From assembly GCA_964632315.1 (NCBI GenBank), contig CAZWEM010000001.1:32001-96000 (forward strand): a stretch of DNA of 64,000 bases, written 5' to 3'. The notes below the pieces were generated by a model, which worked only from the letters and a program-made list of their open reading frames with translations, did not search any database and was not told the DNA's origin. This document shows, piece by piece, positions 11,761 to 34,892 of the stretch (position 1 is the stretch's first letter; each line of letters starts with the position of its first letter). A program made the position numbers and the translations under genes. The stretch is from an uncultured archaeon (GTDB lineage Archaea > Asgardarchaeota > Lokiarchaeia > Sigyniarchaeales > SOKP01).

Positions 11761-12780
<1,020 letters not shown>

Positions 12781-12891
12781 TCATATTTTATTCTTTTTTC
12801 TAAGATTTTTAACTTATCATTAAATGTTTTAAATCCCTTTGATTTATGATTTTAATGGAGTAGGTTTTAATTTAGGAATGATCAATAAACA

Positions 12892-14289
12892 TTGATTATC
12901 ATGAATAAAATAACTAAAAACATATCAATTTCGTTTTTAATATATTTATTAGCGTTGCTAACCACAGGAACAATTTGTTTCACATTTTTCGTGCGAAGCA
13001 TACAAGCGGTTGATTTTCCGGGAGAATATTGGACAATTCCTTTAAGATTAGATGCCAATAATTTAAGCAGTTATACATCGAGCAATGATCATAGCATCGC
13101 TGTTGATACTAATGGATACATCCATCTCGTCGTCGAAGGGAAAAGTACCGAATACCCTTCAAGTGGAGAGATTTTTTATTGGACCAATATTGGTGGTACA
13201 TGGTCATGGCAAAATATAAGCAACGCAGATCAAGCGTCATTTGGTAATTCCAATCCAACAATCGCTTTAGACGCAAACAATAAAGCACACGTAGTTTGGG
13301 CGAGCGGACCGTTAGGCGTAAACAGAGACATAATGTATTCAAATAACGTAGGGGGCTCATGGACGACCCCTTATAATGTTACCCAAACTAATTCGACGGT
13401 ATATGAAGTATCGCCTACCATATCATTTGATTCGAACGGCGTGTTGCATATCGCCTATTTCGATGCAGCAAATTTTGATATCTATCACGTCAGTAAGGAT
13501 TTAAACGGTGTTTGGTCTGCACCCGAAAAAGTAAGTAATAATCCTTACAGCTATAACGCTATCAACCCAGCATTGAATCTTGAGATTGATTCACAAAATA
13601 ATCTCTATATATTATATTCGGCGAGTATTGGTGCAAGCCATTTGAAGATTTATCTAGTTGAGAATTCAGGAGAGGGTTGGACCGCTCCTTATAACGTATC
13701 TCAAATAAGCAGCATAGGTAATGATTGGAACGATTATTCATCATTTGCCATAGATAATGATGATAATATTCATATTGCGTGGGGGTATCGTAACGAAGCT
13801 TTGACCCTTTCTGGTGTTATATATGCTGAAAAAATAGGTGGAATATGGAGTGAGACAGTTTTCTTAAACGCCACATCATTTAACGTAGGCTCCCTTTCTA
13901 TCACCACCGACTTAGAGAATCACGTTCATTTAGCCTATCAACAAGAACAAAAATCACTTGTGGATTATGAAATTTATTACACGAATAATGTTAACGGTCA
14001 TTTCATGCAACCAGTAAACGTTACTCGAACCCCTAATAACAGTGAGTCAGCGCCAAGGATCGTGATTGATAACACTGGATACGTTAACATGATCTATTAT
14101 AAGACTACAACTTATAATAGTGTCCGATTTGTTAAAAGTGCATTACCCGTAGCACCAGAAACGCCTGCTGTATCACCAACGGGATTGCGAATTCCTGGAT
14201 TCGAAATGAGTATTCTGATTACATTCAGTTTGATCTGTGTTGGAATTCTAATACGTAAATCACAAATTAAGAAAATAAATAATAATTAA
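12892..14289 (+). CDS. Surface protein with beta-propeller-like repeats and PGF-type C-terminal sorting signal
   Basis: Signal peptide; about 7 repeats of P.IA.D.NG..H..(W/Y)...I.Y....GG.W..P.NV; IPGF + TM helix + basic tail. Confidence 0.75.
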   Translation: MIIMNKITKNISISFLIYLLALLTTGTICFTFFVRSIQAVDFPGEYWTIPLRLDANNLSSYTSSNDHSIAVDTNGYIHLVVEGKSTEYPSSGEIFYWTNIGGTWSWQNISNADQASFGNSNPTIALDANNKAHVVWASGPLGVNRDIMYSNNVGGSWTTPYNVTQTNSTVYEVSPTISFDSNGVLHIAYFDAANFDIYHVSKDLNGVWSAPEKVSNNPYSYNAINPALNLEIDSQNNLYILYSASIGASHLKIYLVENSGEGWTAPYNVSQISSIGNDWNDYSSFAIDNDDNIHIAWGYRNEALTLSGVIYAEKIGGIWSETVFLNATSFNVGSLSITTDLENHVHLAYQQEQKSLVDYEIYYTNNVNGHFMQPVNVTRTPNNSESAPRIVIDNTGYVNMIYYKTTTYNSVRFVKSALPVAPETPAVSPTGLRIPGFEMSILITFSLICVGILIRKSQIKKINNN

Positions 14290-14749: not shown

Positions 14750-16068
14750 ATGTCAAAACCTAAAGTTGCAATAATTGGAATAGGGATTACACCTTTTAAA
14801 GCAAGATATTTAGACAAAACCTATTTTGAACTCGCTTACGACGCCACAAAATTGACTTTAGATGATGCAAATAAAAATGGAGCGGAGATAAGCCATAAAG
14901 ATTTACAATCAACAGTATATGGGATATATAACGAGTTATTTGAGAGGCAATTCATGCCGGATATCTTTACTAATAGCTATCTGGGAATGAATGATAAACC
15001 AGGTACAAGAGTAGCGACTGGAGGTGCTACCGGAGGTTATACTGTTAGGATGGCTTATGCTGAAGTTGCTTCGGGATTGTCAGATCTATGCTTATGCCTC
15101 GGTTTGGAAAAATGTAATGATTGTTATGATGATCAAACTGGTGCTACAACACCAGAAGTACTTAACGCCATTGCCTATAGCGCGGATATGACGTATATTA
15201 TATAGTACATCTATATGAGCGGAAGAATATCCGATGGGAAAATACTACTTGGATTTACCAAATATCCCCATTGATGGCAGCCTCATCATACGTGTCAATG
15301 GTAAATGCTCATTATGAAGAATTCGGAAATCCTACTGAGGAACAGATGGCATGTGTTAGTGTAAAAAATCATGGAAATGCAAGGTTGAATCCGAAATCAC
15401 AGTCTCCGATGAAGATTACCGTGGAAGACGTCATGAACTCCCGGATAATATGTTATCCCTTCAAGATGTTAGATTGTTGTTTATATTCGGAAGCCTCAGC
15501 TGCTTTAATACTAGCAAGTGAGGAAAAGGTAAAAGAACTTGGTGTTGAAAAACCAATTTGGATTACAGGTGTGGGCGCAGCTAATACAGATTGCTTCATC
15601 GGGAATCGAGAAGATATGGGCCGTCTTTATTCGAATATTTATGCCGCCAAATCTGCGTATAAGATGGCAGGATTAGATTATAATAATATAAAGCAGCAGA
15701 TCGACTTGGCAGAACTACATGATGCGTTTTCGGGACAAGAAGTCATATCCTATGAAGAGTTAGGATTTGTACCTTTTGGTGAGGGAGGTTCATGGATTGA
15801 AAAGACGTTTGAAAAATCGGGAGAAGGACCATGGATAGATGGAGAGTTGCCCTGTTGCCCTTCAGGCGGGCTTATTGGATGTGGCCACGCGGTGGGCGCT
15901 ACAGGCATTATGAGTACTGGAGAAGCAGCTTTACAATTAAGAAGAGATGCCGGAAAGCATCAGGTACAGATCGAAAAAGGGAGGGCAATTTCTCATTCGA
16001 TTGGAGGACCTGGAGCAGCATATGCTGCTATAATTGTAATGGAAAATGAGGAGGGTCTAAAAAAATGA
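14750..16068 (+). CDS. SCP2-type thiolase-family protein interrupted by two micro-introns; predicted join(14750..15196,15225..15240,15272..16068), 419 aa
   Basis: N-half VAIIGIG, RVATGGATGG, LGLEK; C-half VSVKNH.NA..NP, LDCC, ELHDAF, SGGLIGCGHAVGATG; removing 28+31 nt restores the frame and the D-x3-E-x-P-x-G motif of paralogue 36674-38095. Confidence 0.85.
15197..15224 (+). other. Putative BHB-type mRNA intron 1 (28 nt)
   Basis: 8-bp intron stem UUAUAUAG/CUAUAUGA, 5' bulge AUA, central helix ACGU/GCGG (one A.G mismatch), 3' bulge AAG, exon stem CGGAUAU/AUAUCCG; contains in-frame TAG. Confidence 0.75.
15241..15271 (+). other. Putative BHB-type mRNA intron 2 (31 nt)
   Basis: Central helix UGGG/CCCC (one U.C mismatch), bulges AAA and AUU, intron stem AUA/UAU plus UUGG/CCAA; removal gives GGA A|UG AUG. 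Confidence 0.7.
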
Positions 16069-16556
16069 CGGATTTTCAAGATCACCAAATACGTGATAGG
16101 ATCAAAATAGAGTATATGTACACAATGGGCGGGCAATCAAAATTCTTCATTGAATTAATGAAGAATAAAAAGCTTTTGGGGACTAAATGTAAAAAATGTG
16201 GAAAGACATGGATGCCTCCTCGAATTAATTGTTCTGATTGTTACGAACCCGCTGATTGGATTGAACTTAAACAAACGGGAACGATTGAAGTTAGTACAAT
16301 TGTTTGGTACACTACTTCTGCTTTCATTAAAGCCGTGCCTTACGGAATTGGATTCATAAAACTAGATGGAGCAGAAACTGCTTTGTTTCAAGGAATCTTT
16401 TCCGAGAATTTAGTTCCTTCAAAAATAAAGAAAGGAAAAAGGGTCAAAGCGGTATTTAACAAGGAAAGAGAAGGAAAGATGACCGATTTCTTTTTTGTAC
16501 CAGAAGATGAATATGAAAATTGGATTTCAAAACCAGAATTTGAAGGAGGGATGTAA
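16065..16556 (+). CDS. Zn-ribbon/OB-fold (DUF35) thiolase partner
   Basis: CKKC...PPR..CSDC, IKLDGA; ATGA overlap with the thiolase gene. Confidence 0.9.
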   Translation: MTDFQDHQIRDRIKIEYMYTMGGQSKFFIELMKNKKLLGTKCKKCGKTWMPPRINCSDCYEPADWIELKQTGTIEVSTIVWYTTSAFIKAVPYGIGFIKLDGAETALFQGIFSENLVPSKIKKGKRVKAVFNKEREGKMTDFFFVPEDEYENWISKPEFEGGM

Positions 16557-16558
16557 AA

Positions 16559-16924
16559 ATGGCGAAAGCAAAAGAGAAGTTAAATGCTATAGTAGATAAG
16601 ATCAATTCTAATCCTAAGGCTCAAGCTGTTTTTGTAACTAATATCACAGGAAAAGATGTTGATTGGGAGATGTCATTCCAGTTTAATCTTGATAATGAGA
16701 ATCCCTTCTACTTAGAAATTAAAAGCAAGGCTGCTCATATTATAGTGGGGACAAAAAATGATGCTGAAATTGTTATGTCAGGGAATCCTGATGCTATAAT
16801 AAAAATCTGCGAAGGGAAGGGAGATTTTACCCACGCAATATCTCGTGAACATATCACTGTCGAAAAAGGAAAGGTTATGGATGTAATCCGCCTAACGAGA
16901 GCAATTACAATTGTGTTAAAATAA
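16559..16924 (+). CDS. SCP2 sterol-carrier-like protein
   Basis: FQFNL...FYLEI......GT...AEI.M.G...........F..A....ITV..G pattern; operon context. Confidence 0.7.
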   Translation: MAKAKEKLNAIVDKINSNPKAQAVFVTNITGKDVDWEMSFQFNLDNENPFYLEIKSKAAHIIVGTKNDAEIVMSGNPDAIIKICEGKGDFTHAISREHITVEKGKVMDVIRLTRAITIVLK

Positions 16925-32581: not shown

Positions 32582-33766
32582 TCACCTCATTGGTTCTTTT
32601 CCTAATATCATTAATTCCGTCCATAAACTTCCACCAAATCCCATAGCAAGTGCTCTTTCAACATCTGGAACTTGACGTTTTTCTCCACGATCCATTATCT
32701 GAGTCGCGGCTTCTGCAACTCTTACCATCGCGGTAGCACCGATAGGATTAGTACTCAAAACGCCTCCCGAAGGATTAACTGGTAATTCTCCACTCATTTG
32801 GGTGATACCTTCATCTAAAAGCTTTCCTCCCTCTCCGGGTTTGCAGAAACCAAGAGCTTCAGTCCAAGAAAGTTCACTCCAAGAAGTCGGTTCATAAATT
32901 TCAGCAACATCTAAGTCATTTATTGGATCTTTTATGCCTGCTTTTTTATATGCTTTCTTTGATGCTATCGTAGCTGTAGGAAGGTCATACATTTTATCAT
33001 CTGTCCCAAATGTATAATAATGTGCAGTTTCCACTGCGTGGAACCATGCCGGATTATCCGTGATCTTTTTAACCTCTGTCTCATTGGCATAAATTAAAGC
33101 ACATGCACCTTCACTCTGTGGGCAACAATCATGTAATCTTAGAGGATAGGAAATTACTTGAGAACTCATCACATAATCAATTGTTATATCTGGCATTTGG
33201 AGATGAGCAAAAGGGTTATTTGCGGCATTACTTCTATTCTTTACAGTCACTTTTGCTGCCTGTTCAGGTGTTATTCCATATTTTGCTGAATACATTCCCG
33301 CCATTAAAGCTAGTGGACCTAGTGCTCCTGCGAGAGAAGGTCTTTCCCAAACTGGGTCAAATGCAGTTATAATCCCAGTCGTTGCTCCACCTTCATTCAA
33401 TTTTTCCCATCCTATTACAAGAACCTTATCATAGATCCCAGAAGCTACATTATGATATCCACAAATTGCTAATGAACTGCCCGTGGTACCCCCAGTTGCC
33501 ACCTTGACTACAGGTTTCAGATATCCTGGAGCAGCGTCAATTCCCGTCCACATCTCAGAAAAGTTTATCCCTTCAAAGTGATCCATATTACCGATTAGAA
33601 TCGCATCGATATCTTTTGGTTCAAGTTGAGCATCATCAAGAGCCATTCTAACGGCTTCATATATCATTTCTGGGATATTTACATCTCTTCTCTTACTTCT
33701 AAATTTGGTTTGCCCTATTCCAACTATTGCAGTTTGATGTTTTGTCATTTTTTTACTCGCCTCCAA
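32582..33766 (-). CDS. Thiolase-family protein (Ltp3-like)
   Basis: GIGQTK..KR.DV, DHFEG, GWEK, AEIYEP.SW.E..W.E.LGF, SGGVLSTNPIGA. Confidence 0.85.
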   Translation of the reverse strand: MEASKKMTKHQTAIVGIGQTKFRSKRRDVNIPEMIYEAVRMALDDAQLEPKDIDAILIGNMDHFEGINFSEMWTGIDAAPGYLKPVVKVATGGTTGSSLAICGYHNVASGIYDKVLVIGWEKLNEGGATTGIITAFDPVWERPSLAGALGPLALMAGMYSAKYGITPEQAAKVTVKNRSNAANNPFAHLQMPDITIDYVMSSQVISYPLRLHDCCPQSEGACALIYANETEVKKITDNPAWFHAVETAHYYTFGTDDKMYDLPTATIASKKAYKKAGIKDPINDLDVAEIYEPTSWSELSWTEALGFCKPGEGGKLLDEGITQMSGELPVNPSGGVLSTNPIGATAMVRVAEAATQIMDRGEKRQVPDVERALAMGFGGSLWTELMILGKEPMR

Positions 33767-34892
33767 AAATTAAAACGCAATTTCCTTGGGAACATATCCC
33801 ATTCATTCCATGTGCCAAACCTATTTTAGCATTATTTACTTGTCGTTTCCCAGCTTTTCCCATGAGTTGCGTGGCTACTTCGGCAACTCTTATTAAACCA
33901 TTTGCCATTGTCGGGTTACTAGATAGCACTCCTCCAGACTTATTTATTGGAAGATTTGATTCAAAGTGATCGTCTATAAACTTTCCTCCTTCTCCTTTTT
34001 TACACAAGCCCAGAGATTCATAGATCATCAGTTCATGAAATGAAAACGCATCATACACTTCAAATATGTCAATTTCTTTTAGGGGATTTTGTATATTCGC
34101 CATTTTATATGCTTCCTTGGCTGCTAATTCCAATCCAACGAGATCAGTCATGTTCCTATGACCTAAGTAATATGCATCTGTACAACTTCCATATCCTTTC
34201 AACCATACTGGAGTGTCTGTAAATTCTTTAGCTTTCGCTTCATTTGTTAGAAGCATTGCTACAGCACCATCTGAAAAAGGCGGTAAATCTAATTCCTTTA
34301 GGGGATATGCCATCATTTTTGAATTAAGGACGTCCTCAATGGAAATTTCTTTCTGCAAATGAGCGTATGGATTGTCACGGGCATATTTTCTATTTTTTAC
34401 AGCAATTTTAGCTGCTTGTTCCTCAGAAATTCCATACTTCTGCATATACATGTTCGCCATCAATCCAGCCGACGAAACTTGATCCAAACCAAGATGTCGT
34501 TGATAGAATGGATCGAATATTGAATTATTTACCAGATACTGGTTTACTTCTGAACATTTGCAATGAGAAACTACAAGAACTGTATCATATGACTCTGATA
34601 AAATTCGCATGGCTCCATATACATAAGCAAACGCCCCATCACCAGAAACGCGAGATTCGCTTTTTCTTACTGACCCTACTGCGTCTTGAATCGCCATGTT
34701 AGCAATTGTTCTGCCATCGTTAAAATCATTAGAACTGGTGATTACACATCCAACATCATCATTAGTTATTCCGAGATCTTCATGAAGCTGGTGAACAACT
34801 TCGAAAACTAGTTCTGAAACGGTTAAATCAATTTTATCTTCTTCATATTTAGTTTGAGCGCAACCAACTATCGCTACTTTATCTTTATCCAT
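33753..34892 (-). CDS. Thiolase-family protein (Ltp4-like)
   Basis: ES.V.GDGAFA, DPFY, PPFSDGA, EVYDAF, NKSGGVLSSNP. Confidence 0.85.
   Translation of the reverse strand: MDKDKVAIVGCAQTKYEEDKIDLTVSELVFEVVHQLHEDLGITNDDVGCVITSSNDFNDGRTIANMAIQDAVGSVRKSESRVSGDGAFAYVYGAMRILSESYDTVLVVSHCKCSEVNQYLVNNSIFDPFYQRHLGLDQVSSAGLMANMYMQKYGISEEQAAKIAVKNRKYARDNPYAHLQKEISIEDVLNSKMMAYPLKELDLPPFSDGAVAMLLTNEAKAKEFTDTPVWLKGYGSCTDAYYLGHRNMTDLVGLELAAKEAYKMANIQNPLKEIDIFEVYDAFSFHELMIYESLGLCKKGEGGKFIDDHFESNLPINKSGGVLSSNPTMANGLIRVAEVATQLMGKAGKRQVNNAKIGLAHGMNGICSQGNCVLIFGGE

What the first reader, a model, noticed from the sequence alone, without database searches (positions are those of the whole stretch)
15241..15271. 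Intron 2: relaxed BHB/BHL with the same outer-pair mismatch
Central helix UGGG(15235-38)/CCCC(15266-69), bulges AAA and AUU, intron stem AUA/UAU then UUGG-AUUUA-CCAA. Cuts give GGA A|UG AUG. The sequence is unrelated to intron 1 but the geometry is the same, including a mismatched outer helix pair, implying structure-based recognition by a relaxed-specificity endonuclease. Caveats: a competing UGGG/CCCA register would give an out-of-frame 32-nt cut, and a 1-nt slide gives Leu or Lys instead of Met.
Basis: partly seen in the sequence, partly recalled or inferred. Interest (0 to 1): 0.78.

Follow-up and report, generated by a model that had tools for sequence, protein, structure and literature searches.

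The report
Relaxed tRNA-type mini-intron in Asgard mRNA
A 31-base hairpin insert that breaks a thiolase-like gene of a Loki-type (Asgard) archaeon has the borders, shape and conservation pattern of an intron cut out by the tRNA-splicing enzymes. Published work that I could search shows this kind of mRNA splicing inside an archaeal coding sequence for one gene only (cbf5).

Summary
Window 15241-15271 is a private 31-nt insertion in a thiolase-like gene (14750-16068, +). It lies 16 nt after a second insertion of 28 nt (15197-15224). Removing both restores ...DMTY|EYPMG|MMAAS, as in 75 of 79 orthologous loci whose upstream flank could be read.

That register has three G-C pairs plus a U.C outer mismatch, and bulges AAA and AUU.

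The same two introns occur in three other Promethearchaeia genomes:
- In intron 2, 11 of 14 unpaired positions vary and 0 of 17 paired positions do (P = 4e-6).
- dN/dS among the carriers is about 0.03.
- The spliced frames stay open (420-438 aa).

The genome encodes a two-subunit EndA. Its catalytic subunit carries the K-P-R loop that confers broad substrate specificity. It also encodes RtcB, and its tRNA genes hold many 18-30-nt non-canonical introns.

The competing 32-nt register is the predicted favourite in this genome, but it cannot form in one relative, so the 31-nt register is the common one.

The four carriers are scattered on the gene tree but cluster on the exon flanks, which suggests transfer of the cassette by recombination.

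No spliced RNA was seen. The scan has noted similar mini-introns in other genes of this genome and in at least 57 genomes.

The parts
14750..16068 (+). Thiolase-like gene in three exons. The spliced open frame is 421 aa.
   Evidence: Pfam Thiolase_N (weak) and Thiolase_C_1. Orthologs have one open 416-423 aa frame. Explicit splicing gives an open frame.
14750..15196 (+). Exon 1, ends ...GAT ATG ACG TAT (DMTY)
   Evidence: Alignment with intron-less orthologs
15197..15224 (+). Intron 1 (28 nt). Relaxed BHB: central helix ACGU/GCGG with an A.G outer mismatch, 8-bp inner helix, and a 7-bp outer helix 15183-89/15227-33.
15225..15240 (+). 16-nt micro-exon (GAA TAT CCG ATG GGA A), identical in all four carrier genomes
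15241..15271 (+). Intron 2 (31 nt), the finding itself
   Evidence: Private insertion against orthologs. The same site and length occur in G053, G044 and Bin_204.
15235..15238 (+). 5' strand of the central helix (UGGG, exon)
   Evidence: Pairs G12-C44, G13-C43 and G14-C42 of alignment A1 are invariant in 4/4. The outer pair is unpaired in 3/4 and U.G in 1/4.
15239..15241 (+). 5' bulge AAA. The inferred cut is 15240|15241.
   Evidence: BHB rule (cut after the second bulge nucleotide). It coincides with the comparative border.
15242..15265 (+). Intron body: helix h' 15242-44/15263-65, internal loop 15245-48, stem 15249-52/15258-61, loop 15253-57, and unpaired A15262.
   Evidence: Stems are invariant and loops variable in four genomes. 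Fisher P = 4.3e-6.
15266..15269 (+). 3' strand of the central helix (CCCC). Position 15269 is the free outer position (C/C/U/G in the four genomes).
15270..15272 (+). 3' bulge AUU (AAU in Bin_204). The inferred cut is 15271|15272.
15272..16068 (+). Exon 3, starts UG AUG GCA (completes Met, then MAAS...)
15273..15276 (+). Possible 4-bp outer helix GAUG with UAUC 15228-31, across a 3x3 internal loop. It competes with the outer helix of intron 1.
   Evidence: It forms in the predicted fold of the isolated 72-nt Bin_204 segment only. With 60-nt flanks its pair probability is 0.00-0.01 in all four genomes, except 0.36 in G000 after intron 1 is removed. Inference only.
16065..16924 (+). Downstream partners: a DUF35/ChsH2-type OB-fold and zinc-ribbon gene and an SCP2 gene (context only)

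Best explanation
Window 15241-15271 is an endonuclease-type (BHB) mini-intron in the pre-mRNA of a thiolase-like gene of a Promethearchaeia (Loki-type Asgard) archaeon. It is the second of a tandem pair separated by a 16-nt micro-exon.

Proposed mechanism:
1. The transcript folds so that exon bases G15236-G15238 pair with intron bases C15266-C15268. The helix is extended by a non-canonical U15235.C15269 pair.
2. This helix is flanked by the 3-nt bulge AAA on the 5' strand and by AUU on the 3' strand.
3. The two-subunit splicing endonuclease (alpha-beta)2, which carries the broad-specificity loop, cuts after the second nucleotide of each bulge (15240|15241 and 15271|15272).
4. RtcB joins the exons. 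This gives GGA-AUG-AUG and the conserved peptide EYPMG-MMAAS.

Shown here: the borders, the structure and its conservation, purifying selection on the interrupted gene, and the presence of the enzymes.

Inferred only: that the cut and the ligation actually happen, and at these exact phosphates.
For: (1) Borders. Against 11, and then 85, orthologous genes the insertion is exactly 15241-15271, and its removal restores the ancestral GGGAA|TGATGG with no substitution.

(2) The BHB register predicts these same borders. The chance for a given border pair is about 0.5%.

(3) The same intron occurs at the same site in G053, G044 and Bin_204. In it, 0 of 17 paired positions vary and 11 of 14 unpaired positions do (P = 4.3e-6).

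(4) The interrupted genes are under strong purifying selection. dN/dS is about 0.03, with dS from 0.7 to above 2. After removal of both introns the frames are open for 420-438 aa.

(5) The genome has a catalytic EndA alpha subunit. Its best solved relative is the A. pernix alpha subunit (7.7e-34), it has Tyr/His/Lys, and it keeps the K-P-R of the specific loop. There is also a His-less beta paralog and RtcB. K44 in that loop is needed for relaxed motifs (PMC3241643), and Asgard archaea are reported to have (alpha-beta)2 with this loop (PMC5829648).

(6) tRNA genes of the same genome carry 18-30-nt hairpin introns of the same build at non-canonical sites.

(7) The 19 other inserts in this gene family, at five further sites, all have a 4/4 central helix in the register that keeps the protein.

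(8) The 32-nt register is broken in Bin_204 (G.G and A.A; pair probability 0.00), whereas the 31-nt register has probability 1.0 there.
Against: - No RNA evidence. The only RNA run holding this DNA has one 201-nt contig, at 14840-15040.
- In this genome the predicted ensemble favours the out-of-frame 32-nt register (0.64 against 0.19).
- A 29-nt register with four Watson-Crick pairs also exists.
- There is no contiguous outer helix, so the 3' site lies in an internal loop rather than a true bulge.
- There is no compensatory double change in intron 2. All paired columns are invariant.
- A genome-wide BHB plus frame-joining census shows no excess over offset controls, so the motif alone has no predictive power.
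Confidence: 0.8

Rival explanations
1. Same enzyme, different register. EndA cuts in the thermodynamically favoured UGGG/CCCA register (32 nt), in the GGGA/UCCC register (29 nt), or one nucleotide off (Leu or Lys instead of Met). Much or all of the product would then be mis-spliced or carry a different residue.
For: Register B is the minimum-free-energy fold in G000 and G053 and has probability 0.64 in G000. Register C has four Watson-Crick pairs, through bulge migration in the run A15239-A15242.
Against: - The 32-nt and 29-nt products are out of frame; the 29-nt one reads GGA AAU UGA.
- dN/dS of about 0.03 and intact frames require a correct product.
- Register B cannot form in Bin_204.
- The residue is Met in all 32 genus orthologs but one (Val), and the spacing fits in 75 of 79 wider loci.
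- Only the Met junction restores the ancestral DNA with no substitution.
Confidence: 0.08
2. Translational recoding. The ribosome bypasses or frameshifts across the inserts, as in T4 gene 60 or the yeast mitochondrial byp elements, so no RNA is removed.
For: Short hairpin inserts in an AT-rich genome. Intron 1 has an in-frame UAG two codons after the exon.
Against: - There are no matched take-off and landing codons. GGA or AAA stands before intron 2 and CAU/UUG before exon 3; UAU stands before intron 1 and GAA after it.
- The Met codon is split A|UG across the insert, which hopping cannot rebuild.
- Variation in the insert follows pairing, not codon position.
- The borders fit BHB cuts exactly.
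Confidence: 0.04
3. A dead or split gene. The inserts are scars of an insertion event, and the gene is a pseudogene or is expressed as two separate polypeptides.
For: Gene callers would see a 151-aa and a 265-aa ORF. There are eight thiolase-fold paralogs in the genome, so a loss could be tolerated.
Against: - Four genomes with saturated synonymous divergence keep both inserts, no other lesion, and dN/dS of about 0.03.
- The micro-exon still encodes EYPMG in its own frame.
- Paired intron positions are invariant.
- The chance that two unrelated scars both fall in BHB register is about (0.005)^2.
Confidence: 0.04
4. An assembly or binning artefact created the insert.
For: The genome is a metagenome-assembled genome with 8.6% estimated contamination.
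Against: Homologous inserts stand at the same site in three independently assembled genomes, with diverged loops.
Confidence: 0.01

Closest known systems
cbf5 pre-mRNA intron of Desulfurococcales and Sulfolobales (Watanabe 2002; Yoshinari 2006; Yokobori 2009, PMC2738675)
   Same: A short endonuclease-type intron inside a protein-coding sequence. Its cleavage motif is often relaxed, its host has a hetero-oligomeric EndA, and it shows gain and loss among relatives.
   Different: - A different phylum (Asgard/Promethearchaeia, not Crenarchaeota) and a different gene (a metabolic thiolase-fold protein).
- Two introns in tandem with a 16-nt micro-exon.
- Six to seven intron sites in one gene family.
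- A signal of transfer between lineages.
- Splicing here is not yet shown in RNA.
Non-canonical tRNA introns with relaxed HBh'/BHL motifs cut by (alpha-beta)2 EndA with the Crenarchaea-specific (L1) loop (PMC3241643, PMC5829648); heavily interrupted Asgard tRNA genes (bioRxiv 10.64898/2026.10.13.758758)
   Same: The same size class (18-31 nt), the same build (one nucleotide, hairpin, 3' helix strand, two nucleotides), and the same predicted enzyme. tRNA genes of this very genome carry such introns.
   Different: - The substrate is an mRNA with no tRNA body to help recognition.
- The central helix has only three standard pairs.
- The 3' site is not closed by a contiguous outer helix.
Unconventional HAC1/XBP1 mRNA splicing (Ire1 plus tRNA ligase/RtcB) in eukaryotes (own knowledge)
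   Same: Spliceosome-independent removal of a short intron from an mRNA at stem-loop sites, followed by RtcB-type or tRNA-ligase joining that changes the reading frame.
   Different: The nuclease is different (Ire1, not EndA), the event is regulated by stress, and it is a single conserved event rather than scattered, gained and lost introns.

Membership tests
Archaeal endonuclease-type intron, strict canonical hBHBh' motif | [quoted passage not shown] | tested here: not met
   There are only three standard pairs plus U.C (U.U, U.G in relatives). No contiguous outer helix exists: A15234.G15273 and G15233.A15274 are mismatched.
Archaeal endonuclease-type intron, relaxed HBh'/BHL class | A central helix with a proper 3-nt 5' bulge and inner helix, and the second cut site in a loop or disrupted bulge four pair-steps away | tested here: met
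   AAA bulge, GGG/CCC helix plus a non-canonical fourth step, and inner helix AUA/UAU. The 3' site AUU lies at the right distance.
Archaeal endonuclease-type intron | The predicted cuts restore the uninterrupted gene product | tested here: met
   The junction GGGAA|TGATGG equals that of intron-less orthologs, and the open frame is 421 aa.
Archaeal endonuclease-type intron | The host encodes a splicing endonuclease able to cut relaxed motifs, and an RtcB ligase | tested here: met
   Alpha subunit with Tyr/His/Lys and the K-P-R loop, a His-less beta subunit, and RtcB at 568 bits.
Archaeal endonuclease-type intron | The structure is maintained by selection in homologous copies | tested here: met
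   0 of 17 paired and 11 of 14 unpaired positions vary in four genomes, P = 4.3e-6. No compensatory double change is seen in intron 2, but there is one (G-C to A-U) in intron 1.
Archaeal endonuclease-type intron | The intron is absent from mature RNA (exons joined, intron released or circularised) | not testable with these tools
   One RNA run holds only 14840-15040. Metagenome contigs with the joined junction belong to other species.
cbf5-type pre-mRNA intron | Located in the cbf5 gene at the conserved crenarchaeal site | tested here: not met
   The gene is a thiolase-fold protein. It works like the cbf5 intron but is not homologous to it.
Translational bypass element (gene 60 / byp) | Matching take-off and landing codons flanking the bypassed stretch | tested here: not met
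   No matching codons at either insert, and the Met codon is split A|UG.
Group I / group II introns or any Rfam family | A match to a curated RNA family | tested here: not met
   No Rfam match at E <= 1 in 14900-15600, and no tRNA there. Thirty-one nucleotides is far below ribozyme size.

The most novel reading that the evidence does not exclude
The two relaxed introns, their 16-nt micro-exon and about 100 nt of flanking exon form a cassette. This cassette has moved between Promethearchaeia species by homologous recombination. Endonuclease-type mRNA introns in the closest archaeal relatives of eukaryotes would then spread horizontally as well as being gained and lost in place. That would be a working natural model of how introns can colonise protein-coding genes without a spliceosome or a homing enzyme.
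Probability: 0.4. Interest if true: 0.85.

Novelty: new variant of a known kind. Interest (0 to 1): 0.72.

Why it matters
In the papers I could search, splicing of an archaeal mRNA coding sequence by the tRNA endonuclease is documented for one gene only (cbf5), and only in Crenarchaeota. This case differs in several ways:
- The same mechanism is implied for an ordinary metabolic gene of an Asgard archaeon, in tandem and with a 16-nt micro-exon.
- The motif is weaker than any of the other 19 inserts in the gene family.
- It has nevertheless been kept under selection in four species.

This gives a sharp test case for how little structure the Asgard (alpha-beta)2 endonuclease needs, and for how it chooses between three competing registers that differ by one nucleotide.

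The mosaic phylogeny adds a testable hypothesis of intron spread by recombination, which bears on the debate about how introns first invaded protein genes.

For annotation, such genes are miscalled as two fragments.

Tried and rejected
- RNA evidence. The single RNA run found (a salt-marsh metatranscriptome, share 0.14) gave one 201-nt contig at 14840-15040 and nothing at the junctions.
- Junction scan. A scan of metagenome contigs for the joined junction found four contigs. All are from other, intron-less species, 73-80% identical to this gene.
- Protein search. The best full-length hit is 92% identical, so no spliced transcript or intron-less strain of this species is on record.
- Genome-wide census. 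Counting BHB motifs that join two long frames gave the same counts with true and with shifted cuts (13297 against 12742-13937; 188 against 176-193 at the strictest setting). It is swamped by operon junctions and is uninformative. The four strict candidates in the window are not convincing; the one I read (33759-33786) is an operon junction.
- Repeat family. BLAST of the intron sequences against the genome found no sequence family.
- Rfam and ARAGORN found nothing at the locus.
- A 3'-exon hairpin (15273-87) replacing the outer helix is predicted in G000, G053 and G044 but is not conserved in Bin_204, so I dropped it.
- Fold energy gives no signal: z = -0.8 and +0.7.
- ARAGORN intron calls on the tRNA genes were unreliable (1.2-1.3-kb 'introns'), so I used Rfam alignments instead.

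Full report
**The locus**

Window 14750-16068 (+) encodes a thiolase-fold protein with a weak Thiolase_N match and Thiolase_C_1. It is followed by a DUF35/ChsH2-type gene and an SCP2 gene. In this genome the gene is read in three frames:
- frame 2 up to ...ADMTY, then II*;
- a 16-nt stretch that encodes EYPMG in frame 0;
- frame 1 from (L)MAASSY onward.

Relatives are metagenome-assembled genomes labelled Promethearchaeota or Promethearchaeia, that is Loki-type Asgard archaea. The genome has 4.45 Mb and 33% G+C.

**Borders from comparison, not from structure**

Most same-genus orthologs have a single open frame of 416-423 aa. A DNA alignment with 11 of them shows two private insertions here, 15197-15224 (28 nt) and 15241-15271 (31 nt). 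Removing them restores ...GAT ATG ACG TAT | GAA TAT CCG ATG GGA A | TG ATG GCA, the sequence type of the intron-less genes. One-nucleotide slides would give GGA UUG (Leu) or GGA AAG (Lys), and each needs one extra substitution relative to the ancestral DNA. The residue is Met in all 32 genus orthologs but one (Val). In 75 of the 79 wider loci with enough upstream sequence the spacing shows no insert at either site. Two loci carry both introns (one of them is G053 again), and in two the site of intron 1 could not be scored.

**The structure**

- central helix U15235.C15269, G15236-C15268, G15237-C15267, G15238-C15266;
- bulges AAA 15239-41 and AUU 15270-72;
- inner helix 15242-44/15263-65.

Intron 1 has the same build: A15191.G15222, then C-G, G-C, U.G; bulges AUA and AAG; an 8-bp inner helix; and a 7-bp outer helix after a G.A mismatch.

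The relaxed motif alone is common, at 0.53% of all position and length pairs. The evidence is therefore the coincidence with independently fixed borders, not the motif as such.

**Competing registers**

- Register B (UGGG/CCCA, extendable to six pairs) gives a 32-nt, out-of-frame excision. It is the minimum-free-energy fold in this genome. With 60-nt flanks its pair probability is 0.64, against 0.19 for the in-frame register A.
- Register C arises because A15239-A15242 is a run of A. Pairing A15239 with U15265 gives four Watson-Crick pairs and a 29-nt excision, which would read GGA AAU UGA.

Neither alternative can give a working protein.

**Relatives with the same introns**

Three further genomes carry both introns at the same sites: G053 (identical to a binchicken MAG), G044 (partial locus) and Bin_204 (WJIS01000086).

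Intron 2 is 31 nt in all four. Alignment A1 shows that all 17 paired intron positions are invariant, while 11 of 14 unpaired positions vary (Fisher P = 4.3e-6). Position 15269 reads C, C, U, G and position 15271 reads U, U, U, A. Both are unpaired in register A but paired in register B. In Bin_204, register B therefore has G.G and A.A mismatches and probability 0.00, whereas register A gains a U.G fourth pair and has probability 1.0. The register common to all four is the in-frame one.

Intron 1 is 28, 35, 34 and 31 nt long. It keeps the A.G (A.A) outer mismatch in all four and shows one compensatory G-C to A-U change.

**Selection**

After removal of both introns the frames are open for 421, 420 and 438 aa. 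Between carriers dN is 0.02-0.07 and dS is 0.7 to above 2, so dN/dS is about 0.03. The genes have stayed functional through saturating divergence with both inserts in place. This excludes a pseudogene and requires precise removal or bypass.

**Machinery**

The genome has two tRNA-intron endonuclease paralogs.
- The 207-aa protein is closest to the catalytic alpha subunits of A. pernix and S. tokodaii (7.7e-34). It keeps Tyr, His and Lys. It aligns through the Crenarchaea-specific loop with K-P-R conserved. K44 of that loop is required for cutting relaxed and BHL motifs (PMC3241643).
- The 205-aa protein has Ser in place of the catalytic His, as expected of a structural beta subunit.

Asgard archaea were reported to have the (alpha-beta)2 type with this loop (PMC5829648). 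RtcB is present.

Only about 23 tRNA genes are found by the Rfam model in a genome that is 99.5% complete. Ten of them are 93-106 nt long, with inserts of about 18-30 nt in the anticodon loop, the D-loop or the variable region. Several of these have clean 4/4 BHB motifs and the same hairpin build as the mRNA introns.

**Family-wide view**

In 85 distinct orthologs there are six insertion blocks. One holds two sites 3 nt apart, which gives seven sites. All 19 instances outside the G000-type cassette have a 4/4 central helix in a register that preserves the protein (each was chosen among 4-12 in-frame options, so this is not an unbiased count). The two introns studied here are the only ones with a 3/4 helix, so the 'relaxed with outer mismatch' character is a real peculiarity of this cassette.

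**History**

On the exon-only gene tree the three full-length carriers fall in three separate clades, and their nearest relatives lack the introns. With the 220 columns around the introns removed, a tree holding the carriers together is rejected (AU p = 0.001). The 160 exon columns around the introns place all four carriers on one side of a branch (SH-aLRT 86).

Pairwise identity among carriers peaks at 95-97% around the introns, against 70-83% elsewhere. G053 drops to 75-80% against its sister gene exactly there. This fits transfer of the cassette by homologous recombination. Ancient gain with many precise losses, together with structural constraint on the exon flanks, is not excluded.

**RNA**

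No junction evidence could be obtained.

**Comparison and novelty**

The closest known case is the cbf5 pre-mRNA intron of Crenarchaeota (PMC2738675). I found no paper reporting such introns in Asgard protein genes. A 2026 preprint treats Asgard tRNA introns only.

Earlier notes of this scan report similar mini-introns in other genes of this genome and in at least 57 genomes. I treated those as leads and did not test them, apart from intron 1 and the transfer idea, which I tested on this gene.

**Verdict**

This is a real, selected, relaxed BHB mini-intron with the 31-nt boundary strongly favoured. It is a new variant of a known kind, and RNA proof is outstanding.

Noticed in passing
G000 genome: e.g. 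C26:17498-17596, C67:14280-14381, C15:60320-60423, C1:971-1063 (loci L130-L139): Only about 23 tRNA genes are detected by the Rfam model (29 by ARAGORN, several with implausible introns) in a genome that is 99.5% complete. Ten are 93-106 nt long, with 18-30-nt hairpin introns in the variable region, D-loop or anticodon loop. Many tRNA genes are probably too interrupted to be found.
   Followed up: partly
Orthologs L011, L037, L057, L069, L072, L075, L100, L106, L112, L113, L121 and others: The same gene family carries mini-introns of 29-32 nt at five further sites. Two pairs of sites lie only 3 nt apart. One genome (G032, L037) has three introns, and the 30-nt intron at site P6 is shared by eight genes.
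   Followed up: partly
window 15170-15300 and the matching parts of L035, L045, L067: Mosaic history. Exon flanks of the intron pair group the four carriers, while the rest of the gene rejects that grouping (AU p = 0.001). Either the cassette was exchanged by recombination, or it was lost precisely many times.
   Followed up: partly
window 15183-15189 / 15227-15233 versus 15228-15231 / 15273-15276: The micro-exon serves as the 3' strand of intron 1's outer helix and as the 5' strand of a possible outer helix of intron 2. The two helices exclude each other, which hints at an order of splicing or at tethering of the 16-nt exon.
   Followed up: no
window 14750-15196: The match to Thiolase_N is below Pfam's cut-off (19.8 against 26.4 bits). 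The neighbours are a ChsH2-type DUF35 gene and an SCP2 gene. The enzyme may be an Ltp2-like aldolase-type member of the thiolase fold rather than a true thiolase.
   Followed up: no
L084 (DATKTP010000175.1) and L125 (DAOVMD010000455.1): Contigs filed under bacterial MAGs (Candidatus Deferrimicrobium, Mcinerneyibacteriota) encode this archaeal gene at 88-91% protein identity. They are probably mis-binned Promethearchaeia contigs.
   Followed up: no
window 14840-15040: A 201-nt contig with one mismatch is present in a salt-marsh metatranscriptome library. The organism, or a very close strain, occurs there. Transcription is not shown.
   Followed up: partly
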